This document shows positions 9,037 through 61,034 of a DNA stretch of 64,000 nucleotides, piece by piece (within the stretch, counting starts at the first letter, position 1; each line of letters starts with the position of its first letter). Location of the stretch: NCBI GenBank assembly GCA_963663225.1, contig OY760142.1:2208001-2272000 (forward strand), written 5' to 3'. This DNA is from Nitrospirota bacterium. GTDB taxonomy: Bacteria > Nitrospirota > UBA9217. Made by a program: the position numbers and the translations under genes. The notes beneath the pieces were generated by a model. The model had not been told where the DNA came from and ran no database searches. It was given only the letters and a program-made list of their open reading frames with translations.

Positions 9037-10290
9037 ATGCACGCTCTAGAAAAAATCCTTGCGCGCGCTGCGGGCATGAATTGGGTCGCAACCGGAGAAA
9101 TAATAAATTGCAGTATTGATCTTGCGGGGATCAACGATCTTTATCTTCAGACAATAAAGTCTTTTTTTGAGGTTGGAGGTAAGAATGTATCATATCCCGA
9201 AAAAATAGTGATGTTTCTTGATCACTATGCCCCCCCTTCAACGATCATGCAGGCGGATAATCAAAAACAGTTCAGAGAATTCTGCTGGGACCAGGGCATA
9301 ACACATCTGATGGATATCGACCAGGGTGTCTGTCATCAGGTGCTTGCCGACAAGGGGATGTCGTATCCGGGAGAGATCATTGTTGTAACAGATTCCCACA
9401 CGACCACACACGGAGCTTTCGGCGCGTTCGGAACCGGGGTGGGCGCCACCGATCTAGCGATAATTATGGCAACGGGAAAGCTGTGGTTCCGTGTTCCGGA
9501 GATAATCAGAATAGATCTGACTGGCGAACTTTCCAAAGGAGTCTTCGCAAAAGATATTATTCTCCACATAATCGGGGATCTTGGCGCAGATTATGGTGTA
9601 TACAAGGCGATTGAGTTTACAGGCCCATTGCTCAAGAAATTGAGTGTATCGGAGCGCATGGTCCTGTGCAATATGACGATCGAAATGGGCGCCAAAACCA
9701 GTTATATTCAGCCTGATGAAATTACCCTGGATTTTTTGAGAGACAAAGTTAAGAAAAGTTACGAAATACCAACCACGGATCCGGATTATCGATACGCTGT
9801 CGAGTTCAATTACGATGTTACGCGACTTAAACCGCAGGTTGCAGCACCGCACAGCGTCGATAACGTATCGGACCTGGCAGAACACCTTGGAACCCCTATC
9901 AATCAGGCATTTCTCGGAACTTGCACAGGCGGTCGAGTGGAAGATCTCGCTATCGCTGCGCGTATACTGTACGGAAAGAAGATAAATCCCCGGACCCGTC
10001 TTATTGTCGTTCCTGCATCAAAAAAGGTTTTTATGGACGCGATCGAAAAAGGCTATATCCAGACGCTCATCGAATCCGGAGCTACTTTTGTAACGCCAGG
10101 ATGCGCCGCGTGTCTTGGCACACATCAGGGGATGATTGCATCAGGAGAGAAGTGCATCACGTCATCAAGCAGAAATTTCCCGGGACGTATGGGACACAAC
10201 AAGGGTGAAATATTTTTAGCTTCACCTGCCGCAGTAGCAGCTTCGGCTCTTGAAGGCCGAATAGCAGATCCGTCACGTTATATGGATTAA
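9037..10290 (+). CDS. LeuC/HacA/DmdA-family [4Fe-4S] hydratase large subunit
   Basis: DSHTTTHGAFGAFGTGVG, FLGTCTGGR, PGCAACLG, SSRNFPGRMG. Confidence 0.9.
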   Translation: MHALEKILARAAGMNWVATGEIINCSIDLAGINDLYLQTIKSFFEVGGKNVSYPEKIVMFLDHYAPPSTIMQADNQKQFREFCWDQGITHLMDIDQGVCHQVLADKGMSYPGEIIVVTDSHTTTHGAFGAFGTGVGATDLAIIMATGKLWFRVPEIIRIDLTGELSKGVFAKDIILHIIGDLGADYGVYKAIEFTGPLLKKLSVSERMVLCNMTIEMGAKTSYIQPDEITLDFLRDKVKKSYEIPTTDPDYRYAVEFNYDVTRLKPQVAAPHSVDNVSDLAEHLGTPINQAFLGTCTGGRVEDLAIAARILYGKKINPRTRLIVVPASKKVFMDAIEKGYIQTLIESGATFVTPGCAACLGTHQGMIASGEKCITSSSRNFPGRMGHNKGEIFLASPAAVAASALEGRIADPSRYMD

Positions 10291-10302
10291 GGAAAATCAA
10301 AT

Positions 10303-10812
10303 ATGAATACTATTGTCAAGGGAAGAGCTTTCGTATTCGGAGATAATATTTCGACCGATGAAATATATCCCGGTCAGTTTCTTGATCTTACAGATCCGCA
10401 GGACGTAGGTAAGCATGCGATGCAAGGATCTGATCCGAATTTTGTGAGCCAGTTTAAAACCGGAGATGTAATTGTGGCGGCAAGCAATTTCGGTTGCGGA
10501 TCAAGCCGCGAGCACGCTGTCGTGACACTGAAGGCTATCGGTGTCGGGGTAGTTATAGCGGAATCATTCGGGCGCATATTCTATCGAAATGCGATAAACC
10601 TCGGAATACCGTTAATCGTATGTCTTGGGATCAGTCAGGCTGTCAGAAACGGAGACGTGATAAGCGTAGATATAGCAAAAGGGGTTATCAAGAATGAAAC
10701 CACTCATTCTTCTGCCAAGGCTGAACCGCTCTCGGCCTATGTTATGGAAATATTGTCTCATGACGGAATAAAACCCATGGTCAAAAAACAGATGGAATCT
10801 GCTTCGGAATAA
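10303..10812 (+). CDS. LeuD/HacB/DmdB-family hydratase small subunit
   Basis: FGDNISTDEIYPG, NFGCGSSREHA, ESFGRIFYRNAINLG. Confidence 0.9.
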   Translation: MNTIVKGRAFVFGDNISTDEIYPGQFLDLTDPQDVGKHAMQGSDPNFVSQFKTGDVIVAASNFGCGSSREHAVVTLKAIGVGVVIAESFGRIFYRNAINLGIPLIVCLGISQAVRNGDVISVDIAKGVIKNETTHSSAKAEPLSAYVMEILSHDGIKPMVKKQMESASE

Positions 10813-10858
10813 AACCTTCGAGAATGAGGCTTCATAAACCAATAAAAAGGGGGAGTTC

Positions 10859-12193
10859 ATGGGGAATGGCGAGATTATTCTTAACAAAGCAAAATCCGGG
10901 TTCTTTCTGAAAATCACGGATTACAAGATCGGATTGATACCGATACCGCTGTTCATAATACTGGCTGTGATTGCAATTACTGCAGCGTATACGAAGAAAC
11001 TGCCGAGCGATCTGGTCGGCGGCTTTGCTATTACGCTGGTAATAGGAGGATTATTGTGGGATATCGGAACACGTGTTCCGATATTGCGAAACATCGGCGG
11101 CCCTGCAATCATGTGCGTTTTTGTACCCTCGGCCCTGGTCGGATACAACTTGCTGAATGATGATGTTGTAAGAGCTACGACGACGCTTATAAAAGGCACA
11201 AACTTCCTGTATCTCTATATTGCAATAGTTGTCGTAGGCAGCATACTTGGTATGAATAGGAAGGTCCTGATCCAGGGATTTTCAAGAATGTTCATACCGC
11301 TCCTGGTTGGGACAATTGCGGCTATAACAGTAGGTTGTCTCGTTGGACTGGTTTTCGGTTATGAATTGAAAAAAACATTTTTCTTTATTGTCATTCCGAT
11401 TATTGGAGGAGGTGTCGGTGAAGGCGTTCTTCCCTTGTCGATAGCGTATTCCGAGCTTCTCGGAAAGCCTCAAGCAGAGTTTATCTCTCAGTTGATCCCA
11501 GCTGCCATGCTTGGCAATGTATGTGCAGTGGTCGGTGCCGGATTGCTGAAGTGGATCGGTGAGAAAAAACCTGAGTATAATGGCAAGGGAATCCTCGTAA
11601 AGACCGGTGCAGATAGCGAATTGCTGGCTGAAGAGAAAAAAATGTCGGAAAAACCGGTTGAATTCGCACTTATGGGGGTCGGTATTCTGATCGCATGTGT
11701 TTTTTTTATTTTTGGAGGACTTACGACGAAACTGTTTTTCGGAATTCCCGGACCGATTATCATGATTCTTGTTGCGGCACTTGTAAAAATCCTTGATATT
11801 ATGCCTCCAAGAATGGAACAGGGCGCATATCATGTATACAAATTTTTTACCTCAAGTTTTACTTTTATAATACTTGCAGGGCTCGGAGTAATTTATGTAT
11901 CGTGGAACGACCTGCTAAAAGCGCTTACTCCAGGGTATTTATTGATATGTCTGTCGACAGTGACGGCTATGATGACTTCAGGCTGGTTTGTCGGTAAAAT
12001 CATGAAGATGTATCCTGTCGAGTCATCGATAGTCACAGGATGTCATAGCGGACTGGGAGGCACTGGTGATGTTGCAATACTTTCTGCGGCTGACAGAATG
12101 GGCCTTATGCCATTTGCGCAGATATCAACACGCATAGGGGGTGCCTGCATGGTTGTTCTTGCGGTGTTCCTCATGAAGATATTAGGCGGTTGA
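10859..12193 (+). CDS. 2-hydroxycarboxylate transporter (CitS/CimH/MleP family)
   Basis: PIIGGGVGEGVLPLS, GLGGTGDVAILSAADRMGLMPFAQISTRIGGA. Confidence 0.92.
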   Translation: MGNGEIILNKAKSGFFLKITDYKIGLIPIPLFIILAVIAITAAYTKKLPSDLVGGFAITLVIGGLLWDIGTRVPILRNIGGPAIMCVFVPSALVGYNLLNDDVVRATTTLIKGTNFLYLYIAIVVVGSILGMNRKVLIQGFSRMFIPLLVGTIAAITVGCLVGLVFGYELKKTFFFIVIPIIGGGVGEGVLPLSIAYSELLGKPQAEFISQLIPAAMLGNVCAVVGAGLLKWIGEKKPEYNGKGILVKTGADSELLAEEKKMSEKPVEFALMGVGILIACVFFIFGGLTTKLFFGIPGPIIMILVAALVKILDIMPPRMEQGAYHVYKFFTSSFTFIILAGLGVIYVSWNDLLKALTPGYLLICLSTVTAMMTSGWFVGKIMKMYPVESSIVTGCHSGLGGTGDVAILSAADRMGLMPFAQISTRIGGACMVVLAVFLMKILGG

Positions 12194-12210
12194 TGCCTCC
12201 CCAGTTCCTG

Positions 12211-12250
12211 GACGCACTTGAAATCTTTTACGGTTTCAGGTGCGTCTTTC
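12211..12250 (+). terminator. Stem-loop, probable intrinsic terminator between convergent genes
   Basis: GACGCACTTGAAATC-TTTTAC-GGTTTCAGGTGCGTC followed by TTTC. Confidence 0.6.
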
Positions 12251-12361
12251 ACTATAAGATTCTGCATCCACATTATTTATAAGCAGCCGCTTTGTATGCT
12301 GAATCAGATCCGTACCCAAAAAATCACGACGCCAGAAATCACAACCTAAGCGCCGTGGAAC

Positions 12362-13714
12362 TCACTGCTTGCTGTCGGCATTATTGTTCGCCTTCATCCC
12401 TTCCTCGAGCGTCTTGAGAAATATTGCGCGGGCTGGTTCGCTGTTCAGGATTCCCATATGGGTTTCATTGAAACCGACCACCCGCGTAGCGCTGGTCTGG
12501 AACCCCAACTCAAGCTGAGAACGAATGCTGACAGCGCCGTCGCTGTTTTCAGGTTGTTTGACGGTTGACGGGGTCTTGTACGAGAAAAAAAGATAGAAGG
12601 GCAGTTGGCCGGGAAGCGGCTTGCCGGTTAATGCCTGAACGAAATCGCTCTGGGACCGGACATCGAGCCACACCGGTATTTTGGCCGGCGCCTTTCCAGC
12701 CCATTCCTGCGCGATATCGCTGCCGCCGTACGGGGTGGAAAAAGAGCAGAACATTTTGAGGTACGAAGGAACGCCGTTTTGGGCAAGCTTGTTGATTGCG
12801 GACACTGCGACAAGCCCTCCCATACTGTGGGCCACCAGTATGATCTTCCGCGGGTGTCTGATGGAATTGTTGCTTCCGATATAATTCAATGTTTCTGCGA
12901 GCAGAGTGCCCAGCTTGTCAAGCTGGAGGCCGGAGGGATAGTAGAAGAAAAAAGGTTGATACCGGCTGCGATCAAGTCCCGCTGCTAAAAATTTCCAGTC
13001 CCGCGGCGTACCGGCCACGCCGTGGACAAACAGAACAGTAGTTTTGCGCGGATCATACTCTTCAAGTCCGAAAACAAATCCCTGGATATGGTAAATCAAT
13101 TCCGTTGGATAATAGAGGCCTGTTTTGCCGTGACTAGGGTCGAAGAAATCATCATCCAGCGATGTATACACGTAGCTTGACGGCTTGACCATCTCCCGTA
13201 CATGAAAACCTGCCCGGCCCGGATGTTCCATGTCCAGCGTGATTGAAGGCCCTTCGAGCACTGCCCCGGAGATGGATTGCGCAGGATCAACATGAACGGA
13301 GGCCCTGCCCACAACCTCCTCCGTCTCGAAATCCAGGCTCTTGTTCAAATCCGCAAGAATATAAAGATCATAGTTCCCCTTGGGAAGAAAAACCATGTAG
13401 AGCTCGTTCGATTGCTGAATTTGTATTGCAGCAACAATTTCGTTTTTCCGGTATTGATTGCTGACGGCAAGAAGCAGCAGCGGTTCTTGACGGTTACGGG
13501 GTTTGATGATCTGTCCAGCCACAACCAGCGAATCTTCTGGCGCAAGATTGTTCAGGGTAGACATACTCGGCATTCCTTTGAAGGTGATTCCCCAATGAGC
13601 TTTTCTCGCGGCAAAGTTCATATAGCTGCAACCGGAGAGGAAACAGATGCCGACAACCAGAGCAGCAGATATCAGAAAACGAATAAAGATCAGTCGGGAG
13701 TGTTTGGTATTCAT
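12362..13714 (-). CDS. Alpha/beta-hydrolase lipoprotein
   Basis: Lipobox LSGC; LFVHGVAG, AHSMGG nucleophile elbow, SDGAVS, THMGIL; ATG 13714 preferred over TTG 13759. Confidence 0.8.
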   Translation of the reverse strand: MNTKHSRLIFIRFLISAALVVGICFLSGCSYMNFAARKAHWGITFKGMPSMSTLNNLAPEDSLVVAGQIIKPRNRQEPLLLLAVSNQYRKNEIVAAIQIQQSNELYMVFLPKGNYDLYILADLNKSLDFETEEVVGRASVHVDPAQSISGAVLEGPSITLDMEHPGRAGFHVREMVKPSSYVYTSLDDDFFDPSHGKTGLYYPTELIYHIQGFVFGLEEYDPRKTTVLFVHGVAGTPRDWKFLAAGLDRSRYQPFFFYYPSGLQLDKLGTLLAETLNYIGSNNSIRHPRKIILVAHSMGGLVAVSAINKLAQNGVPSYLKMFCSFSTPYGGSDIAQEWAGKAPAKIPVWLDVRSQSDFVQALTGKPLPGQLPFYLFFSYKTPSTVKQPENSDGAVSIRSQLELGFQTSATRVVGFNETHMGILNSEPARAIFLKTLEEGMKANNNADSKQ

Positions 13715-14081
13715 TAGGCGGCAACCTCCGATAAACAGGTTGAAGAAAGCCGAAAACAAATGATTCTCTTCATGAGCAGATTAACGCATGATTTACGCTA
13801 TATGATGCGCTAACAAAATACTATATGATCAAGTAAGTCCTCTCGTCAAGGTCATTTTCAGGTAAAAAAATATCAGATGTTAATAATCTTTAATGGCAAA
13901 AGAATGCCGTAGCCTGTTTGAATGTTACAAAATGCATTAATTTGTACATACTTAAATTCGTTTTTGTATAGGTTTTGCTTGCAAATATTTTTTTGAAATG
14001 CTAAAATTTAATGGTTTTTGGTCATGCCACCATAATTTAGAATACAGATTCTGTAAATCCGAAATTTAAGGAGGGGAGTCA

Positions 14082-14942
14082 TTGAACAATAGATCTCTGA
14101 TATTCCTTTCGATGTTCCTTGCTGTGATAGCTGTTCTATTTAACATGTCAGCAAAGAAACAGCCTGCAGACGACGAGGCAAAAATGTTTGAGTTTATGAA
14201 TCAACCACTTCAGTGGCGGGGAAAACCTGCACCTGACTTTACTATTGATTGCCTGAATAACGAAAAATTCATTTTTTCGGAGCATGTAGGCAAAAAAGTA
14301 GTTATCCTTAATTTTTTTGCAACGTGGTGTAATCCGTGCAAAGAAGAAATGCACGAACTTGTCCGTTTCTATGAAATGCACAGAAAAGACCCGGTAGTTT
14401 TCATCGGTATCAACGCGAATGAATCAGAAAACGCAGTCAGCAGCTTTATTCGTGATTTCTCCATAACATACCCTGTCGCAATTGATAAGAAGAACAGGTT
14501 GCAGAAACTATTTTCAGTCAGGTCCTTTCCTACCACTATATTCATCGGCGCGGACGGCGTTGTCCATATTTATGAAGTTGGACAGATCAAGAATGCCGAC
14601 ATCGCTTTTGACGAACCGCTGAAAACAGGCATGGAAACAATAAAAGCCGGCGCAGGTATTACGAAGGAAGGTTTTTTGGTAAAGTTGGAAGCAGAGAAGA
14701 AAAAAAATGCGACAGAGACCACGCCGAGGGCGAATGAGGAATCAACTGAACCGTCGATCACCGGCCGGGCAAAAACCATAGTTGAAAAAATGCGCTGCCC
14801 CTGCGGATGTTCCCATACCGTCATGGACTGTACCTGTTCGACGGCAAAAGATATCAAAGAGCAACTTAAGAAACGCGACATCTCAAGCATGACAGATGCC
14901 GATCTCATCAAATCCCTTAATCAGGAGTTTTGCATGAAATGA
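14082..14942 (+). CDS. TlpA/ResA-like thiol-disulfide oxidoreductase with C-terminal Cys-rich CcmH-like extension
   Basis: N-terminal anchor; LNFFATWCNPC; FPTT cis-Pro loop; C-terminal RCPCGC..MDCTC. Confidence 0.8.
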   Translation: MNNRSLIFLSMFLAVIAVLFNMSAKKQPADDEAKMFEFMNQPLQWRGKPAPDFTIDCLNNEKFIFSEHVGKKVVILNFFATWCNPCKEEMHELVRFYEMHRKDPVVFIGINANESENAVSSFIRDFSITYPVAIDKKNRLQKLFSVRSFPTTIFIGADGVVHIYEVGQIKNADIAFDEPLKTGMETIKAGAGITKEGFLVKLEAEKKKNATETTPRANEESTEPSITGRAKTIVEKMRCPCGCSHTVMDCTCSTAKDIKEQLKKRDISSMTDADLIKSLNQEFCMK

Positions 14943-54211: not shown

Positions 54212-56770
54212 TCAGGACGCCACCCTTGATGCTTTACGGAGTTTTATTATCTCAAACCATACTATGCTTACAATTCCGGCGGAGAAGCAGAGCGCGAGGT
54301 CTATTCCATGCAGCGTATTGAACTGGAAGAGTGTGTGCATGAACGGGGTGTAGAGCACAATGCCCAGAAACAGAACCGCTCCGCCCAGGACCATCCAAAG
54401 CGCGGGATTGGGATACCGGAATGTCCTGAGGATGCTGCGGGTCCATGATCTGTTTGTCAGGATCAGTCCGAGATTCGCTATGATGAGCGTCGTAAAGCAG
54501 AGGGTCCTCGCTTCAGATTCACCTTGATTGCGATACAGCGCTGTAACATATACCAGGAAAACAACGAGCAGTACAGCGGCCCCTTGCAGCAGACTGAACG
54601 CAATCATGCTGTGGCCGAAGAGCGGAACCCCGAGACTGCGGGGCGGACGCTTCATGATGTCCGACTCCTCCGTCTCCGCTTCGAATACGATTGAGCAGGC
54701 CGGATCGATGATCAATTCAAGAAATACGATATGCACCGGCAGCAGCACCAGCGGCCAGTGGAGCAGTACCGGCAGCAGCGACATCCCGGCTATCGGTACG
54801 TGGACGGCAAAAATATACACCATGGCTTTTTTGAGATTGTCGAATATCCTTCTGCCCATTCTGACAGCCTGAACGATCGACGTGAAATCGTCATCCAGCA
54901 GCACGATTGCCGAAGCCTCGCGGGCAACGTCCGTCCCCCGTCCACCCATCGCGATTCCGATATGGGCCGCCTTGAGCGCCGCCGCGTCATTCACGCCGTC
55001 GCCGGTCATGGCCACGACCTCGCCGTTTGCCTTCAATGCGTTGACGATGAACAGCTTCTGTTCAGGAGCAACTCTCGCAAAAATATCAACGTTGCCGATC
55101 TTTTGCCGGAGCTCCGCCGCGCTCATCTTCTCAATTTCTGGACCCGTGATGACCTCGGCGCGGTTCTTCAGCCCGACTTCCGCGGCGATATTCTGTGCCG
55201 TGACCGGATAGTCTCCGGTTATCATCACGACTCGTATCCCGGCCTCGGAGCACTCCTTGACGGCCTCCGTCACACCCGGCCGGACAGGATCCGCCAGACC
55301 TATCAGCCCCATGAAATCAAAAACAAAGTCATGCTGCCCAGCCGGAAGCGAACCTTTTGAGAAAACAGACCGTGCTATACCGATGACCCTGAGCCCTTCG
55401 ACCGCCATTGTGTCGATGGCGCGGGTAATCTGCTCTTTCAGGGTTTCGTCCAGATGACAGATGTCGGCAATGGCTTCGGGAGACCCCTTTGCGGCAATAA
55501 TGAAGTCCTTGCTGTCAGGTGATTTCCAGACGCGGGACATGGCCAGCAGTTCTGGGGAGAGGGGATATTCCTCCACCAGGACCCAATCGTCGTGAAGATG
55601 GCCGGTATCGGCAAGCGTCCTGTTTCCGAGTTCACGCAGGGCCATTTCCATCGGGTCGAACGGAGCCGCCTGGCTCGCGAGAATACTGAATTCGACGAGC
55701 TCATGGATATTTTCATTGATTGTTTCGGCATCGTACGCCAGATCATAGAACGTGTTTCCAGAAAATACTTTTTTTACGGACATCCGGTTCAGCGTAAGCG
55801 TGCCGGTTTTATCAACACAGAGAACAGTTGCGGAACCGAGCGTTTCCACCGCCGGAACACGCCGCGTCAGAACTCTTTTTTGCGATATCCGCCACGCGCC
55901 GAGAGCAAGGAAAATGGTCAGTACTACCGGAAACTCCTCCGGAAGCATTGCCATGGCGAGGGTTATTCCGGCAAGCAGCCCGTTCAACCAGTTGCCGCGT
56001 GTGAGACCGTAGGCGACAACAACAAGAACAAAAAGTGCCAGTCCGATGAGCGCAAGATTCCGGACCAGCTTCGCGGTTTCTTTCTGCAGACGCGTCCGCT
56101 CGTGCACGATGGTGTTGAGAGACGTGCCTATTTTTCCTATCTCCGTGTCCTCGCCGATCGCTTTGCTTTCCGCGACGCCGAAGCCCTGCACAACCAGTGT
56201 TCCGGAAAATACGCACGGCAGGCAATCACCGCCCGGGCGGGACATTGCAGTAGAGCTTTCCGCGGGTGTTTTTCTTACCGGGATTGATTCGCCGGTAAGC
56301 AATGACTCATCCACGAAGAGATTGACGCAGGAAAGAACGATTGCGTCGGCAGGCACGCGGTCTCCCTCTGCCAGAACGATGATATCGCCCCGCACCACGT
56401 CACGGCCCGGTATCCGTTTCGGGGCTCCGTCTCTGATGACGAGGGCACGGGGGCTTGCGAGGTCCCGCAATGCCTCAAGAGCGCGCTCGGTCTTGCGTTC
56501 CTGATACAGTGTTATGCCTATGACCAGAAACACGAAGCAGAGCAGCAGAAGAGCTTCGACAACATCCCCGAGTAGCAGGTAAATGCCGCCCCCGGAAATC
56601 AGAAGCAAAAACATGGGTTCCTTTATGACCTCGAAGGCTATTGTGGCGGTGCTTTTCTGTTTGGACGCAGGAAGCTCGTTATGCCCGTCTCTGGCAAGTC
56701 TTATCCCGGCTTCCGTCTCGGAAAGCCCCGGAAAGTTCTGAATATTTGTAGCTGTTTTTATCATCAGCAC
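54212..56770 (-). CDS. Cation-translocating P-type ATPase (type II-like)
   Basis: LTGES, PEEFP, DKTGTLT, KGSPE, TGDGVNDA, DDDFTSIV. Confidence 0.93.
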   Translation of the reverse strand: MLMIKTATNIQNFPGLSETEAGIRLARDGHNELPASKQKSTATIAFEVIKEPMFLLLISGGGIYLLLGDVVEALLLLCFVFLVIGITLYQERKTERALEALRDLASPRALVIRDGAPKRIPGRDVVRGDIIVLAEGDRVPADAIVLSCVNLFVDESLLTGESIPVRKTPAESSTAMSRPGGDCLPCVFSGTLVVQGFGVAESKAIGEDTEIGKIGTSLNTIVHERTRLQKETAKLVRNLALIGLALFVLVVVAYGLTRGNWLNGLLAGITLAMAMLPEEFPVVLTIFLALGAWRISQKRVLTRRVPAVETLGSATVLCVDKTGTLTLNRMSVKKVFSGNTFYDLAYDAETINENIHELVEFSILASQAAPFDPMEMALRELGNRTLADTGHLHDDWVLVEEYPLSPELLAMSRVWKSPDSKDFIIAAKGSPEAIADICHLDETLKEQITRAIDTMAVEGLRVIGIARSVFSKGSLPAGQHDFVFDFMGLIGLADPVRPGVTEAVKECSEAGIRVVMITGDYPVTAQNIAAEVGLKNRAEVITGPEIEKMSAAELRQKIGNVDIFARVAPEQKLFIVNALKANGEVVAMTGDGVNDAAALKAAHIGIAMGGRGTDVAREASAIVLLDDDFTSIVQAVRMGRRIFDNLKKAMVYIFAVHVPIAGMSLLPVLLHWPLVLLPVHIVFLELIIDPACSIVFEAETEESDIMKRPPRSLGVPLFGHSMIAFSLLQGAAVLLVVFLVYVTALYRNQGESEARTLCFTTLIIANLGLILTNRSWTRSILRTFRYPNPALWMVLGGAVLFLGIVLYTPFMHTLFQFNTLHGIDLALCFSAGIVSIVWFEIIKLRKASRVAS

Positions 56771-57192: not shown

Positions 57193-57239
57193 TTGACAAA
57201 AAGGCCTTCTCGCTTTATCATATTAGTAATAACTCATAT
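57193..57239 (+). promoter_or_regulatory. Sigma-70 promoter with overlapping ArsR/SmtB-type operator palindrome
   Basis: TTGACA(57193)-N17-TATCAT(57216); ATATTAGT-AATA-ACTCATAT (57220-57239). Confidence 0.7.
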
Positions 57240-57241
57240 AA

Positions 57242-57601
57242 GTGAAGGCTAATGTTATGACATCTAAAATAGAAAAACTGGCAAAAATATTCAAAGTGCT
57301 AGGCGACCCGAACCGACTCACTATCGTTATGTCGATCGGCAAAAGCTCTCGATCGGTGACCGAAATCATTAATACTACAGACTTGTCTCAAACCTTGGTA
57401 TCCTTTCACTTGAAAGCGCTCCGAAATGCCTCAATAGTCAAAACAGACCGCAGTGGGCCATTTATTTATTACAGCCTCACAGAGCCGTCACTCATGGATA
57501 TTCTGGGTGAACTCACGCGCACGGTTTCTTCCATAGATTTAATAGGATCGAAGATACAGGTGGCAACCAACGGGCGGGGCTCTGACAGGAGAAGGAGGTA
57601 A
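57242..57601 (+). CDS. ArsR/SmtB family transcriptional repressor
   Basis: FKVLGDPNRLTI, SVTEI, LSQTLVSFHLKALR, GPFIYYSL; start may be ATG 57257. Confidence 0.9.
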   Translation: MKANVMTSKIEKLAKIFKVLGDPNRLTIVMSIGKSSRSVTEIINTTDLSQTLVSFHLKALRNASIVKTDRSGPFIYYSLTEPSLMDILGELTRTVSSIDLIGSKIQVATNGRGSDRRRR

Positions 57602-57603
57602 CT

Positions 57604-57849
57604 ATGTGGTGGAACGGACCGGGTCCAGGATGGGGGCCGATGTACGGCTGGTGGATCATGCCGATATTCGGGATTATTTTCCTGCTGATCATTCTTTTCA
57701 TCGTCAGCCGTTTTTTCGGCAGCGGGAACGGCTTCTGCGGCAAGCGAGAACGGCGGGATGATGACGGCATACTTGAACTGAAAAAAGAGATACAGGAACT
57801 TAAGGAAGAAATCAGGGAATTAAAGAACGCACAGGGCGGAGGCAAATAA
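57604..57849 (+). CDS. Small single-TM protein with G/W/P-rich N-terminus and coiled-coil C-terminus
   Basis: MWWNGPGPGWGPMYGWW, TM helix, ELKKEIQELKEEIRELK; RBS AAGGAGG. Confidence 0.75.
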   Translation: MWWNGPGPGWGPMYGWWIMPIFGIIFLLIILFIVSRFFGSGNGFCGKRERRDDDGILELKKEIQELKEEIRELKNAQGGGK

Positions 57850-58329
57850 ATGGAAAAGGATAAAATCGGCGACATGTTGTCGCAGGTAAGCCCCGTTCAC
57901 AAAAAAGAAATACTCAATAACCTTATTGCCACCCTACTTAAAGACCTGAACGAAACTGATAAAAAAGAAGTATTTCAAGCGATTCTGACAGGAAGAAAAA
58001 ATTCAGGTCAAGTCATCGATATGGTTGAGCGCTGAATACAGGAATGCACGGATTCCGGCGTGAATCCTGTGGAGATGAGTAAAGAGGTTATTTCGGCCAT
58101 CAGCCATTCTTATGAACTTGCCACCTATTCTACACCTGAGCTACGGGGGCTTTTCAACGACTGGTTAGGAGAAATCGAACGAGAAATCATAGAATTTCTT
58201 TCGGAGAAAGATACGGTAGATCCAGACGAGGTTTCAAAGCATTTCAGGCTTGAACGCGAAAGTGCCATATTTATATTAAGCAGGCTAGCCCGTGAGGGCA
58301 AAATCAACCTTCAGGCATCGGGTACCTGA
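57850..58329 (+). CDS. Putative selenoprotein of unknown function (159 aa; UGA 58033-58035, UxxxC), helical with winged-helix-like C-terminus
   Basis: ORFs 57850-58035 and 58060-58329 are in the same frame, joined as MVER-U-IQECTDSGVNPVEM; hairpin at 58038-58070. Confidence 0.68.
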
Positions 58330-58355
58330 TGCACAGATCCGAGATAGAAGGGAGC

Positions 58356-58619
58356 ATGGACAATAAAATACTGAATACTGGAGCTATTACATCAGCGCTG
58401 GCCTATACGTTTTGCTGACAACTTGTTACAGTCCTAGCCGGTTTTGGGTTGGGAGGCTTCACCCCGGCAGTTTGGATAGATAAATACCGTTGGCTGTTTC
58501 TGGCGGTAGCGGTTGTGCTCCTTGCATTCGCCTTTTACCGGGCGTACAGGGACCGCGAAAAGACAAGCCCATGGGGATCAGGCTTTTGTAAGGAGCTTCT
58601 ATTCTCTGCCTTGTCCTGA
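58356..58619 (+). CDS. MerT-like membrane transporter, putative selenoprotein (CU motif, UGA 58416-58418); C-terminus possibly degenerate
   Basis: RBS GGGAG; MDNKILNTGAITSALAYTFC-U-QLVTVLAGFGLGGFTPAVWIDKYRWLFLAVAVVLLAFAFYRAYR; hairpin at 58432-58454. Confidence 0.72.
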
Positions 58620-58657
58620 TATTTTATTCCCTGCTGTAGAAGACAAAGGAGTTTACC

Positions 58658-60082
58658 ATGACAGACGATCTTAAAAAGAAAAGCGGCGGTGCTTCCTGCT
58701 GACCCCCCGATACTGATGCCGGTCGGCAGCAGAGCACTTGTACAAATGACGTAGAGCAGAAGCAGTCTAATACCGAGCACTGCATGGTTTGTGGCTCATC
58801 CCTGGAATACCTTGACCAGACAAGGCATATAACATGTTCATATTGCGGAAAGATCGAGGGCGGCCATATCATGTGCCCCAACGGTCACTATATCTGCGAC
58901 CATTGCCACAACCGGGGCGCAATGGAGATTATTCAAGATATTTCGCATATGTCAAACTCTAAAGACCCATTTGAGATTGCGGAATTGATGATGAGCTATC
59001 CAGGGCTTCCCATGCTCGGGTGCCAGCATGCCTACATCGCGAGCGGTGCGCTCATGGCCGCGATAAAAAATGAGGGTTCGCGGAGCATCACAAACAACGA
59101 TATGGATGAGGTCTTCAAACGCACCGAGAAACAAGCTCATGGCGGGTACTGCGGTCTTTCAGGCGTATGCGGCATCGCTCCAGCCATTGGGGCTTGCTTT
59201 TCAGTTCTTACCGGCTCAAAATGCGGCACCACCCAAGAGCAGCAGATCACCATGGAGGCTGTAACGCGTGTATCACGCGTTATCACCGACCTTACCGGCC
59301 CAAGCTGCTGCAAAGCATATGTGCGGGGTGCCCTGGAGGTTTCGGTATCGCTTTTGAAGGATAGTTTAAATATCATCCTGCCTTCGCCTAAAGAGAAAGC
59401 GACCTGCACTTACTCAAGCAAACATCCCCATGGCTGCCGAGAAGGACAGTGTCCGTATTTTGCTGTAACTGTAGAACCCACAAGAGCAGCCTTGAACATG
59501 AGTAAAGTACCTGTCTCACTAATCATAAGAAAAGTGGCTTCAACAGATAGCAAGATGAAAGAGTTATTAAAACGAGCTTTGGAGTTAGGCGCGGATAATG
59601 CAAAAATAATCTCCACTGATTCGGTTGTGGTAGAGGAGTGGGCCCGGTGGAAGTGCCAGTACGGATGCGCACTCTATGAAAAGGATGGCTGCCATCCACC
59701 CAATGCTCCTGATGCTGAAAGTACGAAGAAACTTATGAGAGAATACAGCACGGCCGTGCTCCTTAAGGGATCCAAGGGAAAAGCACTCACAGAAATTGCA
59801 GTTCGGCTTGAAGGAGAAGCTTACCATCAGGGCTACTATAAGGCATTTGCTTTAACGGCGCTTTCAAGCGGCGGCGGAAGCGGATCGACCTGACCCTCCG
59901 GCGATAAAGAGACTCCGGGTGAGTCTCAAAATATGGAACAGCAAAACATGAGAATCCGGCCTCTTATGGAAGCCTGCGGCATTGATGTTTTTAAGACAGC
60001 AAGAAACAACGGTTTTGAAATAGACACTAAAAAAGAAACATACGGTGGTTGGAATTACTTTGCACTTATTTTGGTGGAATAA
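58658..60082 (+). CDS. Cys-rich DUF5714-like + DUF2284-like fusion, putative selenoprotein with two Sec (UGA 58700-58702 and 59891-59893), 474 aa
   Basis: RBS AAGGAG; SGGASC-U-PP leads in frame into ORF 58784; after the second UGA the frame continues with RPLMEACGIDVFKTARNNGF..NYFALILVE*; hairpins follow both UGAs. Confidence 0.82.
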
Positions 60083-60388
60083 ATGAAGATTGAATGTTAC
60101 CTATCACAAGGTTGCTCTTCTCTTGAAGAGCTAAAAGCAAATATCGAACAGGCGCTTAACATGTCCGGTATTAAAGCGGAGATGTATTATTATCAAATAG
60201 GCGATGAAGAAGCCGCCGAATTAAAACTGGCCGGTTCTCCAACGGTCTTGATAGACGGCAAAGACATTGCCCCGGGTGCAGCGCCGGGATTTTCCTGAAG
60301 AACATACCGTGACGAGTCTGGCAGGCTCGGCAATGTTCCTACGGTTGAAATGCTTTTAAAAGCACTTCTTGTTAGCAAAAAGCAATGA
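60083..60388 (+). CDS. Thioredoxin-fold (DUF2703-like) putative selenoprotein, 101 aa (UGA 60296-60298)
   Basis: MKIECYLSQGC..GSPTVLIDGKD..PGFS-U-RTYRDESGRLGNVPTVEML; the family has an SCRxY motif at this position; hairpin at 60313-60329. Confidence 0.82.
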
Positions 60389-61034
60389 AGTGAGCAGCGA
60401 ATCTCGGTGTCCCATAACTGCTTTATAGTAGAGCAGAGACATCATAAGTTGATCGGCATCAGCAAGGCCCAAGACGTAGTTTGTACATGATACAAATCGT
60501 ATTTAATGATACTTGCGCGTGATCAAAATTGCGGAAAAGCAGGTGAAGTCCGTATCGCATCTTTTTGAATTACAGTGTATTATACGCAGTTTGTAAATAA
60601 GCTACAAGCTGAGTAACTGATTCGTGAAGCGAGTAATGGTTGAAAATTGCAACAAGCAAGCCGGCGACAAGGCAGCCTCCTGCGACCAATCCGAGAAATC
60701 GCGCAATCATCAGCATCATTTGAACATACAGTACCATCATACTAGTGTCCTCCTTGCCGGTCGAATATGCGTTTTTTGTTGTTGACCGGTGTGTGCTCCA
60801 GCATTTGTTATTTCACTGTTGATTAAAACATACGTCCTTTGGTCTTCTTTGTAAATGTGGAAGATACTGATGATGTCTCAGGTAAATCCGAAAGCTGTCC
60901 AAAAAAAATTTTATTGGGATCAGAAATGAGGATTGAGCAATGGAAATAGACTACAATGTAACGCGGGAGGAGGGCCTCATGTATTTTCGTTAGAATGAGG
61001 ACCGTGAGGGATGCGTGAAAATCGGGCATTCTCA

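What the first reader, a model, noticed from the sequence alone, without database searches (positions are those of the whole stretch)
58658..60082. Two-selenocysteine fusion of DUF5714-like and DUF2284-like Cys-rich domains
Seen: a strong RBS (AAGGAG) precedes ATG 58658. The leader MTDDLKKKSGGASC-U-PP runs in frame into CMVC..CSYC..CPNGHYICDHCH..GGYCGLSGVCG..GPSCCK. A second domain (WKCQYGC..CHPP) is interrupted by SSGGGSGST-U-PS and resumes with 62 more codons ending RPLMEACGIDVFKTARNNGF..NYFALILVE. Both Sec follow a Gly/Ser linker and precede Pro. From memory, DUF2284 proteins carry a CxxCxxC-type cluster at this point, so it appears to be replaced by a single Sec on a flexible loop. Inference: two flexible selenol arms that capture or shuttle a metal or alkyl-metal to multi-Cys sites.
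Basis: partly seen in the sequence, partly recalled or inferred. Interest (0 to 1): 0.85.

Follow-up and report, generated by a model that had tools for sequence, protein, structure and literature searches.

The report
Known double-selenocysteine protein MbdU
This gene encodes a real protein with two selenocysteines that belongs to an already catalogued family (MbdU) of untested function. It sits in a small operon with three other selenoprotein genes that probably handles a toxic metal or metalloid.

Summary
ORF 58658-60082 (+) has in-frame TGA at 58700 (U15) and 59891 (U412) and reads through to 474 aa with DUF5714 and DUF2284 domains.

It is not new. It scores 750 bits (cut-off 600) on NCBIfam NF045648, 'metal-binding double selenoprotein MbdU'. 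A 2026 review table lists this family and credits Haft & Tolstoy 2025.

Both TGAs are conserved in orthologs:
- U2 in 22 of 23 species loci.
- A Cys-Sec pair ('CU') in 19 of 23, and U-D-U in 1.
- No Cys form at either site in these loci.

UGA1 is followed by a hairpin with covariation. The genome has tRNA-Sec, SelA, SelB and SelD.

At least 87 of 149 DUF2284 representatives carry CxxCxxC where MbdU has the Gly/Ser loop with Sec. Both Sec lie on low-confidence stretches of the model.

The gene lies in an ArsR-type operon with TsoA-like, MerT-like (CU) and DF-family selenoprotein genes, five Sec codons in all. Function is untested. My best guess is mobile selenol arms in soft-metal(loid) handling or its redox regeneration.

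Interest is modest.

The parts
57193..57221 (+). sigma-70-like promoter match (TTGACA-17-TATCAT, 11 of 12) ahead of the operon
   Evidence: This is a consensus match only, not evidence of function.
57242..57601 (+). ArsR/SmtB-type metalloregulator gene (TsoR-like)
   Evidence: Pfam HTH_5 at 2e-11. NCBIfam HTH_metalloreg 75.6 bits (cut-off 55). TsoR NF045707 83.2 bits, below its cut-off of 115.
57604..57849 (+). 81-aa ORF with one hydrophobic stretch and a charged tail; no family found
   Evidence: It starts 3 nt after the arsR stop, and its stop abuts the next ATG.
57850..58329 (+). TsoA-like selenoprotein gene with in-frame TGA at 58033-58035 (motif VER-U-IQEC)
   Evidence: NF045695 TsoA 99.6 bits over profile positions 3-144 of 144, below the cut-off of 170. 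A hairpin follows the TGA (-15 kcal/mol, z -2.8). The same gene with the TGA lies just upstream of MbdU in 4 of 5 other genomes, and by motif in 14 of 21 species loci that have upstream DNA.
58356..58619 (+). MerT-like small membrane selenoprotein gene with in-frame TGA at 58416-58418 (motif F-C-U-Q in the first hydrophobic stretch)
   Evidence: MerT scores 25.7 bits on Pfam (cut-off 32.9) and 34.5 bits on NF033560 (cut-off 130), so it is MerT-like and not a member. A hairpin with a GGU loop follows the TGA.
58646..58651 (+). Shine-Dalgarno AAGGAG, 6 nt before the MbdU start
58658..60082 (+). mbdU: 474-codon ORF with two Sec codons and a TAA stop
   Evidence: NF045648 scores 750.4 bits (cut-off 600), aligned 12-474. 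It is the only copy in the genome.
58658..58780 (+). N-terminal leader (residues 1-41) with vicinal Cys14-Sec15; TGA at 58700-58702
   Evidence: The 'CU' pair is conserved in orthologs. Model confidence is low.
58713..58732 (+). SECIS-like hairpin 1: CUGAUGCC-GGUC-GGCAGCAG, 13 nt after UGA1; it also encodes D-A-G-R-Q-Q
   Evidence: In 13 sequences, 93.6% of cells pair and 3 of 6 pairs change on both sides. 0 of 500 shuffles reach the covariation score, and slid controls pair at 59% or less.
58781..58915 (+). Cys/His zinc-ribbon-like module (C42, C45, C60, C63, C73, C80, C83, H84)
   Evidence: The Cys are invariant or nearly so in 14 sequences. Pfam zinc-ribbon and RING hits are weak and below threshold. 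Two beta hairpins appear in the model.
58931..59461 (+). DUF5714 helical Cys-rich core (residues 92-268; invariant C122, C165, C171, C189, C217, C218, C250, C260, C265)
   Evidence: pLDDT is mostly 80-98.
59603..60073 (+). DUF2284 domain, variant form (residues 316-472). It keeps C333, C337, C345 and C440 and lacks the family's CxxCxxC...C motif.
   Evidence: The model resembles the nitroreductase fold, with VIA Z scores of 6 to 8.4.
59873..59923 (+). Gly/Ser-rich loop with Sec412 (TGA 59891-59893), at the place of the lost Cys motif
   Evidence: pLDDT is under 50 for residues 406-422. The motif x-x-U-P-S-G-E is found in 22 of 23 species loci.
59909..59927 (+). SECIS-like hairpin 2: GAGACUC-CGGGU-GAGUCUC, 18 nt after UGA2; it also encodes E-T-P-G-E-S
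   Evidence: The hairpin is kept in 5 of 7 orthologs in this register. Covariation is not significant with 7 sequences.
60083..60388 (+). DF-family thioredoxin-like selenoprotein gene with in-frame TGA at 60296-60298; its ATG abuts the MbdU stop
   Evidence: NF049942 scores 63.8 bits, just below the cut-off of 70. Thioredoxin_3 scores 28 bits (cut-off 24.8). A hairpin follows the TGA.

Best explanation
Shown: this is an ortholog of the curated double selenoprotein MbdU, translated as one 474-aa chain with Sec at positions 15 and 412.

Anatomy:
1. A disordered N-terminal arm with a vicinal Cys14-Sec15 pair.
2. A Cys/His zinc-ribbon-like module.
3. A helical DUF5714 core with nine invariant Cys.
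4. A DUF2284 domain with a nitroreductase-like fold. The family's ferredoxin-type CxxCxxC...C motif has been replaced by a disordered loop carrying Sec412. Four other Cys (333, 337, 345, 440) remain.

It is the fifth of six tightly packed genes behind an ArsR/SmtB-type regulator. Three of the others are also selenoprotein genes: TsoA-like (U-x3-C), MerT-like (C-U in a membrane helix) and DF-family (thioredoxin-like).

Inferred: the operon is a selenol-based system for a thiophilic metal or metalloid.
- The MerT-like C-U pair passes the species by ligand exchange to the mobile N-terminal C-U arm of MbdU.
- That arm delivers it to the Cys-rich DUF5714 core.
- The Sec412 loop, beside the remaining Cys quartet of the DUF2284 domain (probably a metal or Fe-S site), acts as a second mobile selenol. 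It either takes the ligand on or resolves the Se-S or S-S bond left behind.
- The two arms need not do the same job.

Odds: about 0.97 that it is a real two-Sec MbdU member, and about 0.45 for the metal(loid)-handling arm mechanism.
For: Identity
- NF045648 scores 750 bits against a cut-off of 600 and 740.6 bits in the genome search.
- Pfam finds DUF5714 and DUF2284.
- 7 of 401 genomes of the phylum, this one included, score over the cut-off. Six have 2 TGA and one, on a cut contig, has 1.
- In 23 species loci with the DUF2284 half, U2 is TGA in 22. The leader has C-U in 19 (18, plus L083) and U-D-U in 1. Two are cut at the contig start and one is degraded. None of these loci has Cys at either site.
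- The best 120 database relatives all cover 82% or less of the query. This fits gene calls truncated at the two UGAs.

Decoding
- Hairpin 1 shows covariation.
- Hairpins follow all five internal UGAs of the operon. The terminal TGAs at 58327 and 58617 have none (-5.1 and -4.3 kcal/mol).
- The genome has tRNA-Sec at 62.8 bits, SelB at 375.9, SelD at 372.2 and SelA at 597.1.

Arms
- Low pLDDT at residues 1-33 and 406-422 in a model with mean pLDDT 82.
- Among 53 DUF5714-only relatives, 28 have an N-terminal C-U or U-x-U leader and 26 have a C-terminal C-x-x-U or C-U tail. Three have both and only 2 have neither by regex.
- 16 of 16 inspected tails are followed by a CCGUCC-GGUC-GGACGG hairpin.

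Metal context
- An ArsR/SmtB regulator, a MerT-like protein with C-U where MerT has C-C, and an MTH895/ArsE-like thioredoxin fold.
- A sister architecture, ArsM/DUF2284, shares the Sec-loop domain (303.7 bits over profile positions 271-459).
- From general knowledge, not tested here: MerA and MerT use vicinal Cys pairs on mobile segments for Hg(II) hand-off.
Against: - No protein was tested; everything functional is inference.
- The six-gene cluster holds no recognised reductase, lyase, methyltransferase or efflux pump.
- The MerT, TsoR, TsoA and DF-family hits are all below the curated cut-offs of those specific families.
- Neighbours differ among orthologs. One genome has ArsR, MbdU and a UXX-star glutaredoxin-like selenoprotein, then rhodanese(U) and SelD(U). 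That looks redox or selenium-related rather than metal-related. The TsoA-like gene is missing by motif in 7 of 21 loci.
- A relative replaces the DUF2284 half with an AhpD-like CxxU redox module, and the DUF2284 fold resembles flavin or cobalamin redox enzymes. Both fit a redox role better than a carrier role.
- One 78-aa database fragment has Cys at the U2 position, so Sec there is not absolute.
- I could not read the primary paper. Its authors may have evidence or arguments that I have not seen.
Confidence: 0.45

Rival explanations
1. Redox enzyme. The two Sec are redox-active and cycle through selenenylsulfide. They relay electrons between a thioredoxin-like partner (DF-family or UXX-star protein), a cofactor or Fe-S site in the nitroreductase-like DUF2284 domain, and a Cys-rich catalytic DUF5714 core. 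The core acts on an unknown small molecule. Metals are at most structural.
For: - The DUF2284 domain model matches the nitroreductase superfamily in most of the 50 rows listed: reductive dehalogenase Z 8.4, FMN nitroreductases about Z 7, QueG Z 6.7.
- Canonical DUF2284 carries a ferredoxin-type motif.
- In a relative the DUF2284 half is swapped for an AhpD-like CxxU module. That module also occurs behind ArsM and MduS methyltransferases.
- Thioredoxin-fold selenoproteins sit directly downstream in the window and in G385.
- From general knowledge: a C-terminal Cys/Sec pair on a flexible tail is how mammalian thioredoxin reductase moves electrons.
Against: - No nucleotide-binding domain was found.
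- The fold Z scores are middling by the tool's own note.
- The ArsR-type regulator and the MerT-like membrane protein are unexplained by this reading.
- The electron-transfer motif is exactly what MbdU has lost.
Confidence: 0.3
2. Sulfur or selenium trafficking. The arms carry persulfide or perselenide (or selenide) between carriers, for example for detoxifying or using selenium or sulfur species.
For: - In G385 the MbdU locus lies within about 4 kb of a rhodanese with Sec at the active-site position, SelD and TauE/SafE-like permease ORFs.
- The regulator also scores weakly on the sulfite sensor BigR (51 bits, cut-off 155).
- The TsoA-like and TsoR-like genes resemble a system whose TsoB is a rhodanese/DsbD-like fusion. 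I saw only that name, in the review table.
Against: - The window's operon has no rhodanese and no SelD. The genome has no TsoB over cut-off (best 66.8 bits against 805).
- This context was seen in one ortholog locus only.
Confidence: 0.1
3. Not one protein. The TGAs are ordinary stops, giving a 14-aa peptide, a 369-aa protein from Met43 and a 49-aa ORF, or a decaying gene.
For: - Standard gene calling gives ORFs 58784-59893 and 59933-60082.
- Nearly all database entries are such fragments.
- Many DUF5714 relatives start near Met43 without a leader.
Against: - Both TGAs, the reading frame across them and the flanking residues are conserved in up to 22 of 23 species loci.
- SECIS-like hairpins follow them, with covariation at UGA1.
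- The DUF2284 profile runs contiguously across UGA2.
- A strong SD precedes ATG 58658.
- The genome has the full Sec machinery.
- The curated family model is met.
Confidence: 0.02

Closest known systems
MbdU, metal-binding double selenoprotein (NCBIfam NF045648). Listed in the table of review PMC13188914 with motif 'CU' and 2 Sec, credited to Haft & Tolstoy 2025, mSystems 10:e0141724.
   Same: Everything tested: a score above the cut-off over residues 12-474, the domain order, the C-U leader and the Sec loop.
   Different: Nothing of substance. It is 59-73% identical to the orthologs compared. In this window it has a MerT-like CU gene and a DF-family gene as neighbours. My simple motif scan did not find these at the other loci, and that scan is weak.
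Arsenite methyltransferase/DUF2284 double selenoprotein (NF041536)
   Same: The C-terminal DUF2284 variant, including its Sec: 308 bits over profile positions 271-459 and 303.7 bits.
   Different: The N-terminal half is an ArsM methyltransferase, not a zinc ribbon plus DUF5714. The whole-protein cut-off of 575 is not met. No member over cut-off was found in 301 genomes of the phylum.
Canonical DUF2284 proteins (Pfam PF10050, 'predicted metal-binding protein')
   Same: The domain, its fold and the first Cys group (C-x3-C-x7/8-C-P-P).
   Different: They have G-P-C-x2-C-x2-C...C where MbdU has the Sec loop (at least 87 of 149). Many are fused to a methyltransferase.
DUF5714-only selenoproteins with a C-terminal C-x-[ST]-U-K-P tail, or with a C-U leader (no NCBIfam model above cut-off)
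   Same: The zinc ribbon and DUF5714 core (about 50-72% identical), with a Cys/Sec pair on a terminal extension.
   Different: They have no DUF2284 half, and in the tail type the arm sits at the other end of the chain.
MerT/MerA mercury hand-off and the thioredoxin reductase C-terminal Gly-Cys-Sec-Gly arm (general knowledge, not tested here)
   Same: They work alike in that vicinal Cys or Cys/Sec pairs on mobile segments pass a soft metal or electrons to a buried Cys site.
   Different: No homology to MerA or thioredoxin reductase was found, and there is no flavin or NAD(P)H domain. The MerT-like neighbour is below MerT thresholds.
Tso selenoprotein system (TsoA NF045695, TsoR NF045707). I saw the names only, in the review table.
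   Same: The upstream neighbour matches TsoA end to end and has U-x3-C like 'LULAxC'. The regulator matches TsoR.
   Different: Both are below cut-off (99.6 against 170; 83.2 against 115). The genome has no TsoB.

Membership tests
MbdU (NF045648) | whole-protein HMM score at or above the curated cut-off of 600 bits | tested here: met
   750.4 bits, aligned 12-474 to profile positions 6-468 of 468. 740.6 bits in the six-frame genome search with 2 TGA inside.
MbdU (NF045648) | two selenocysteine codons, one in a 'CU' pair | tested here: met
   TGA at residues 15 (after Cys14) and 412. The same positions are TGA in orthologs. The 'CU, 2 Sec' description comes from the review table.
MbdU (NF045648) | the host can insert selenocysteine | tested here: met
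   tRNA-Sec, SelB, SelD and SelA all score over their cut-offs.
MbdU (NF045648) | metal binding, as in the family name | not testable with these tools
   This needs purified protein. The basis for the name is in a paper I could not open.
Bacterial SECIS element | a stem-loop a short distance 3' of the UGA with G in the apical loop, kept by compensatory changes | tested here: met
   UGA1: the hairpin starts 13-15 nt after the UGA with a GGUC loop. 93.6% of cells pair, 7 cells change on both sides, and 0 of 500 shuffles reach the covariation score.
Bacterial SECIS element | the same, for UGA2 | tested here: inconclusive
   A 7-bp hairpin with a CGGGU loop lies 18 nt after the UGA in the window and in 4 others. 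Two orthologs fold differently. With 7 sequences, 97-148 of 500 shuffles do as well. Rfam has no match at gathering threshold.
DUF5714 (PF18978) | score above Pfam's gathering threshold | tested here: met
   156.4 bits against 26.2, covering profile positions 1-173 of 173.
DUF2284 (PF10050) | score above Pfam's gathering threshold over the whole domain | tested here: met
   98.3 bits against 25, covering profile positions 1-160 of 161 in one stretch across the TGA.
DUF2284 (PF10050) | the ferredoxin-like C-x2-C-x2-C...C motif typical of most members | tested here: not met
   The motif is absent and replaced by the Gly/Ser-rich Sec loop. It is present in at least 87 of 149 representatives. The window's domain is therefore a variant form of DUF2284.
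ArsM/DUF2284 double selenoprotein (NF041536) | whole-protein score of 575 bits or more, and an ArsM domain | tested here: not met
   308.4 bits, on the C-terminal part only. No methyltransferase domain was found.
Nitroreductase-like fold superfamily (for the DUF2284 domain) | structural match of the domain | tested here: inconclusive
   VIA-align over model residues 292-474 gives NpRdhA 6zxu_A Z 8.4 (rmsd 3.5, 125 aligned) and many FMN nitroreductases at Z 6-7.7. Foldseek finds nothing at E of 0.001 or better. By the tool's note, Z under 8 is middling.
MerT (PF02411 / NF033560), for the neighbour 58356-58619 | score above threshold | tested here: not met
   25.7 bits against 32.9, and 34.5 bits against 130. 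It is MerT-like in topology and has the paired Cys position as C-U.
TsoA (NF045695), for the neighbour 57850-58329 | score of 170 bits or more | tested here: not met
   99.6 bits over the full profile and 93.2 bits in the genome search. It has the U-x3-C motif but is a different subfamily.

The most novel reading that the evidence does not exclude
The DUF5714 core is an obligate 'selenol swinging-arm' module. Nearly every relative found carries a Cys/Sec pair on a disordered terminal extension, either an N-terminal C-U or a C-terminal C-x-x-U, each with its own SECIS.

The core is combined in a modular way with Sec-bearing helper domains. These are DUF2284 that has traded an Fe-S motif for a Sec loop, or AhpD-like CxxU plus a U-x-P-K tail.

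In this window the module would sit at the centre of an all-selenol counterpart of a mer/ars-type pathway (ArsR-type sensor, TsoA-like U-x3-C protein, MerT-like C-U importer, MbdU, thioredoxin-like selenoprotein). Such a pathway would process a soft metal(loid) by chemistry not yet described. The tail-type and the triple-Sec DUF5714-AhpD forms may be uncatalogued families.
Probability: 0.25. Interest if true: 0.7.

Novelty: already known. Interest (0 to 1): 0.35.

Why it matters
- MbdU is one of few bacterial proteins with two selenocysteines, and no member has been studied at the bench as far as my searches show.
- This window offers a complete, single-contig genome context. Five Sec codons lie in four adjacent genes under one ArsR-type regulator, which gives a compact system to clone, induce and assay.
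- If the arms are metal(loid) ligands, this would be a selenium-based detoxification or trafficking route in Nitrospirota-type anaerobes. That bears on mercury and arsenic cycling.
- If the arms are redox relays, it would show how an Fe-S motif can be replaced by one Sec.
- For annotation, the gene is usually miscalled as three ORFs. Nearly all database entries are fragments cut at the UGAs.

Tried and rejected
Literature
- 'MbdU' as a free-text term hits 186 papers. The 20 listed are unrelated.
- 'DUF2284' or 'DUF5714' hits 2 papers. One is the review. The other (PMC7883539) shows DUF2284 only as a table row, in the one passage I saw.
- Haft & Tolstoy 2025 is not held under either its PMC id or its DOI. 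I saw only its citation and the review's table rows.
- Supplements were not consulted.

Sequence and structure searches
- PDB by sequence gave only chance-level hits to LUC7, E about 0.5.
- Rfam at gathering threshold found only a tRNA-Leu in the window.
- The first AlphaFold2 run, with 14 sequences, was too poor to use (pLDDT 56). The second, with 113 sequences, was used.
- Foldseek against PDB gave nothing at E of 0.001 or better.
- The DUF5714 core's VIA matches are CyuA Z 6.8, PrpD/MmgE-type Z 6.1 and 5.4, and L-serine dehydratase Z 5.8. These are helical and below the tool's caution line, so I draw no fold assignment from them.
- ESM Atlas gave no usable hit for the DUF5714 part.
- Pfam at E up to 10 gave only weak zinc-ribbon and RING hits.

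Expression and reads
- No RNA holder was listed for the operon, so nothing can be said about expression.
- Run X6 laid no reads.

Other checks
- Neighbours of tail-type DUF5714 genes show no consistent context.
- Considered and rejected: a pseudogene or three separate ORFs (see the rivals), and membership in ArsM/DUF2284, MerT or TsoA (cut-offs not met).
- A binding prediction between MbdU and the TsoA-like neighbour could not be run, so I make no claim of binding.
Full report
**1. Observation**

The region reads exactly as described.
- AAGGAG (58646-58651) lies 6 nt before ATG 58658.
- The frame runs to TAA 60080 with two in-frame TGA, at 58700 (residue 15, GGASC-U-PP) and 59891 (residue 412, GGGSGST-U-PS).
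- The product is 474 aa with 23 Cys and 2 Sec.
- Standard ORF calling splits it into 58784-59893 and 59933-60082.
- Pfam finds DUF5714 (residues 92-268, 6.9e-46) and DUF2284 (residues 316-472, profile positions 1-160 of 161 in one stretch, 5.1e-28). The part after the second TGA is therefore a contiguous DUF2284 C-terminus.

**2. It is a known family**

- NCBIfam NF045648, '2X_seleno_MbdU, metal-binding double selenoprotein MbdU', matches residues 12-474 at 750.4 bits (cut-off 600). The genome holds one copy.
[quoted passage not shown] It credits reference 64, Haft & Tolstoy 2025, mSystems 10:e0141724.
- That paper is not held, so I do not know what function or context its authors propose.

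**3. Are the UGAs decoded?**

The genome has the machinery: tRNA-Sec (62.8 bits), SelB (375.9), SelD (372.2, itself with one TGA) and SelA (597.1), all over cut-off.

Distribution and conservation:
- In 401 genomes of the phylum, 7 (this one included) score over the MbdU cut-off. Six show 2 TGA inside, and one on a 5'-cut contig shows 1.
- In the species collection, 153 of 178 candidate stretches encode relatives and the best 80 were kept. 76 of these have the core motif and 23 carry the DUF2284 half.
- Of those 23, the x-x-U-P-S-G-E loop has TGA in 22. The other (L108) did not match my regex and I did not resolve it.
- The leader has C-U in 19 (18, plus L083 seen) and U-D-U in 1 (L104). Two are cut at the contig start and one (L102) looks degraded.
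- No Cys replaces Sec at either site in these loci.
- Six of the 23 are the same contigs as the G-handle loci, so the two counts are not independent.
- Among the best 120 of 257 database relatives, none covers more than 82% of the query. Lengths are 270-411 aa, as expected for gene calls cut at the UGAs.
- One 78-aa fragment (P0171) has Cys at the U2 position.

Hairpins:
- After UGA1 lies the hairpin CUGAUGCC-GGUC-GGCAGCAG. In 13 sequences, 93.6% of cells pair and 3 of 6 pairs change on both sides (7 cells). 0 of 500 shuffles reach the covariation score, and slid registers pair at 59% or less.
- After UGA2 lies GAGACUC-CGGGU-GAGUCUC. It is kept in 5 of 7 orthologs, but with 7 sequences covariation is not significant.
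- As an internal control, the two other internal UGAs of the operon are followed by hairpins (-15.0 and -12.6 kcal/mol). The terminal TGAs at 58327 and 58617 are not (-5.1 and -4.3).

Sequencing support:
- Contigs of two runs of one sample, which may be the source of the window, are identical over 57200-60400.
- A piece from another study covers 59836-59971 with 0 differences, so UGA2 is not an assembly slip. Nothing from that study covers UGA1.

Their conservation is probably RNA-level. This is inference.

**4. Anatomy**

The leader (residues 1-41) carries Cys14-Sec15.

A Cys/His module follows (C42, C45, C60, C63, C73, C80, C83, H84). These residues are invariant or nearly so in 14 sequences. 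Only weak zinc-ribbon and RING hits support the assignment.

The DUF5714 core has invariant C122, C165, C171, C189, C217, C218, C250, C260 and C265.

The DUF2284 domain keeps C333, C337, C345 and C440. In 4 of 7 orthologs the third Cys sits four residues later, after H-P-P instead of before it.

- All 8 canonical loci I fetched have G-P-C-x2-C-x2-C...C just before R-P-S-M-E-x-x-G-I-D-V.
- So do at least 87 of 149 representatives. The regex on the segment end misbinned some more, so 87 is a lower bound.
- MbdU has LSSGGGSGST-U-PSGDKETPGES... at that place.
- About ten representatives end right at '...G-x-T', that is, at the UGA.

With 113 sequences, AlphaFold2 gives mean pLDDT 82 and pTM 0.57. 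Confidence is under 50 at residues 1-3, 8-13, 18-33, 274-293 and 406-422. Both Sec therefore lie on stretches modelled as disordered, and the relative placement of the domains is uncertain.

Fold comparison:
- VIA-align places residues 292-474 with the nitroreductase superfamily: NpRdhA Z 8.4, FMN nitroreductases about Z 7, QueG Z 6.7.
- The consistency of the list is suggestive, but the Z values are middling by the tool's own note, and Foldseek finds nothing significant.
- From general knowledge, reductive dehalogenases and QueG combine this fold with ferredoxin-type clusters. Canonical DUF2284 resembles that combination, and MbdU has lost the cluster motif.

**5. Context**

Six genes are packed with 0-38 nt between them, behind a promoter-like site at 57193.

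| Coordinates | Gene | Evidence |
|---|---|---|
| 57242-57601 | ArsR/SmtB regulator | TsoR-like, 83 bits, cut-off 115 |
| 57604-57849 | 81-aa membrane ORF | no family found |
| 57850-58329 | TsoA-like selenoprotein | VER-U-IQEC; 99.6 bits, cut-off 170 |
| 58356-58619 | MerT-like selenoprotein | F-C-U-Q in the first hydrophobic stretch; below MerT cut-offs |
| 58658-60082 | MbdU | 750.4 bits, cut-off 600 |
| 60083-60388 | DF-family thioredoxin-like selenoprotein | 63.8 bits, cut-off 70 |

The operon holds five Sec codons in four adjacent genes.

The TsoA-like gene, with its TGA, lies just upstream of MbdU in 4 of 5 other genomes tested. By motif it is present in 14 of 21 species loci that have upstream DNA, and absent by motif in 7.

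In G385 the neighbours are instead an ArsR gene, a UXX-star glutaredoxin-like selenoprotein (90.3 bits, cut-off 72), a second ArsR gene, permease ORFs, a rhodanese with Sec, and SelD.

The genome has no TsoB or other TsoA and no ArsM/DUF2284 protein.

**6. Relatives of the parts**

The C-terminal half matches the ArsM/DUF2284 double selenoprotein model over its DUF2284 part (303.7-308 bits). The Sec-loop domain is therefore a module used behind two different N-terminal halves.

DUF5714 without DUF2284 is much commoner, for example in 43 of 63 genomes of the same family. Of 53 such loci:
- 28 have the C-U or U-x-U leader.
- 26 have a C-terminal C-x-[ST]-U-[KR]-P or C-U tail.
- 3 have both by regex.
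- 2 have neither. One of these, L114, ends C-U-T-P after an AhpD-like part.

All 16 tails inspected are followed by a strong CCGUCC-GGUC-GGACGG hairpin that spans the real stop.

One relative (L025) is DUF5714 with the C-U leader, an AhpD-like C-Q-P-U and a G-S-T-U-T-P-K end, three Sec in all. Its C-terminal part matches the ArsM/AhpD and MduS models below cut-off.

NCBIfam gives these forms only sub-cutoff MbdU hits. I could not check whether they are in print.

**7. Mechanism**

Shown: a two-Sec chain with each Sec on a disordered Gly/Ser-rich segment, a Cys-rich core, and a DUF2284 domain that has lost its ferredoxin-type motif at the very place of the Sec loop.

Inferred:
- The Cys/Sec pair can sit at either end of the DUF5714 core in different relatives. 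It must then reach the core through space, as a swinging arm.
- With an ArsR-type sensor and a MerT-like C-U protein next door, the simplest reading is ligand-exchange hand-off of a thiophilic metal(loid) from membrane to arm to core. From general knowledge this is how MerT and MerA work. The Sec412 loop would be a second mobile selenol beside the remaining Cys quartet.
- The AhpD swap and the nitroreductase-like fold argue that the C-terminal module may instead, or also, regenerate the core by redox chemistry.
- I put about 0.45 on the metal(loid) arm model, 0.3 on a purely redox enzyme, 0.1 on sulfur or selenium trafficking, and 0.02 on 'not one protein'.

**8. Verdict**

The finding is real and well observed, and its interpretation is reasonable but untested. 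The protein family is already curated and published. Novelty is therefore 'already known' and interest is modest. The side observations are the parts most worth a specialist's look: the five-Sec operon, the TsoA-like pairing, the tail-type forms and the triple-Sec DUF5714 forms.

Noticed in passing
window 57850-58329 (+): A TsoA-like selenoprotein gene with in-frame TGA at 58033 (VER-U-IQEC-TDSGVNP). The 'TDSGVNP' codons form the hairpin after the UGA. The C-terminal half looks like a small winged-helix domain (weak FeoC and ORF80 hits). It is a frequent upstream partner of MbdU and scores below the TsoA cut-off.
   Followed up: yes
window 58356-58619 (+): A MerT-like 87-aa membrane protein gene with C-U (TGA 58416) where MerT has its Cys pair. 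Gene callers would start it at 58449 and miss the first helix.
   Followed up: partly
window 60083-60388 (+): A DF-family thioredoxin-like selenoprotein gene (TGA 60296), scoring 63.8 bits against a cut-off of 70. A similar 'MKIEC...' ORF follows MbdU in G355 (L018).
   Followed up: partly
L029-L046 and L128-L161 (for example L034:1501-2285): Leaderless DUF5714 proteins end C-x-[ST]-TGA-[KR]-P-(x)-TGA, with a strong CCGUCC-GGUC-GGACGG hairpin just after. They are probable selenoproteins with a C-terminal CxxU arm. No NCBIfam model scores above cut-off for them.
   Followed up: partly
L025:1477-2622 (G359); also L114: DUF5714 with a C-U leader is fused to an AhpD-like C-Q-P-U domain and a G-S-T-U-T-P-K end, three in-frame TGA in all. 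L114 ends ...C-U-T-P.
   Followed up: partly
L104 and L117, leader region: The leader reads A-G-U-D-U-E-P-G-D-D-A-G-G-H-Q. It has two TGA and no Cys in place of the C-U pair.
   Followed up: no
L051-L058 (for example L056, L054): Canonical DUF2284 is fused behind a SAM-methyltransferase-like domain. After a TGA it is followed in frame by an ORF that looks like the N-terminus of a B12-binding radical SAM enzyme. That last assignment is from reading the sequence only and was not scanned.
   Followed up: no
L047 (G385) about 10000-14200: Next to MbdU lie a UXX-star glutaredoxin-like selenoprotein (SS-U-PFS ... GGS-U-AL-stop), a rhodanese with U at the active-site position, and SelD with U, which runs on after a TGA into a TauE/SafE-like permease frame.
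   Followed up: partly
G000:C1:522308-522451 (-), outside the window: A second match to the tRNA-Sec model (48.9 bits, just over cut-off, spread over 144 nt) lies directly beside selD (522565-523479, which has an in-frame TGA). The main tRNA-Sec is at 3214210.
   Followed up: no
window 54212-56770 (-): A divergently placed 852-aa P-type ATPase of the Ca/Mg (type II/III) kind. Its best NCBIfam hit is PMR1-type at 510 bits, below the cut-off of 798. It is not a heavy-metal P1B pump.
   Followed up: partly
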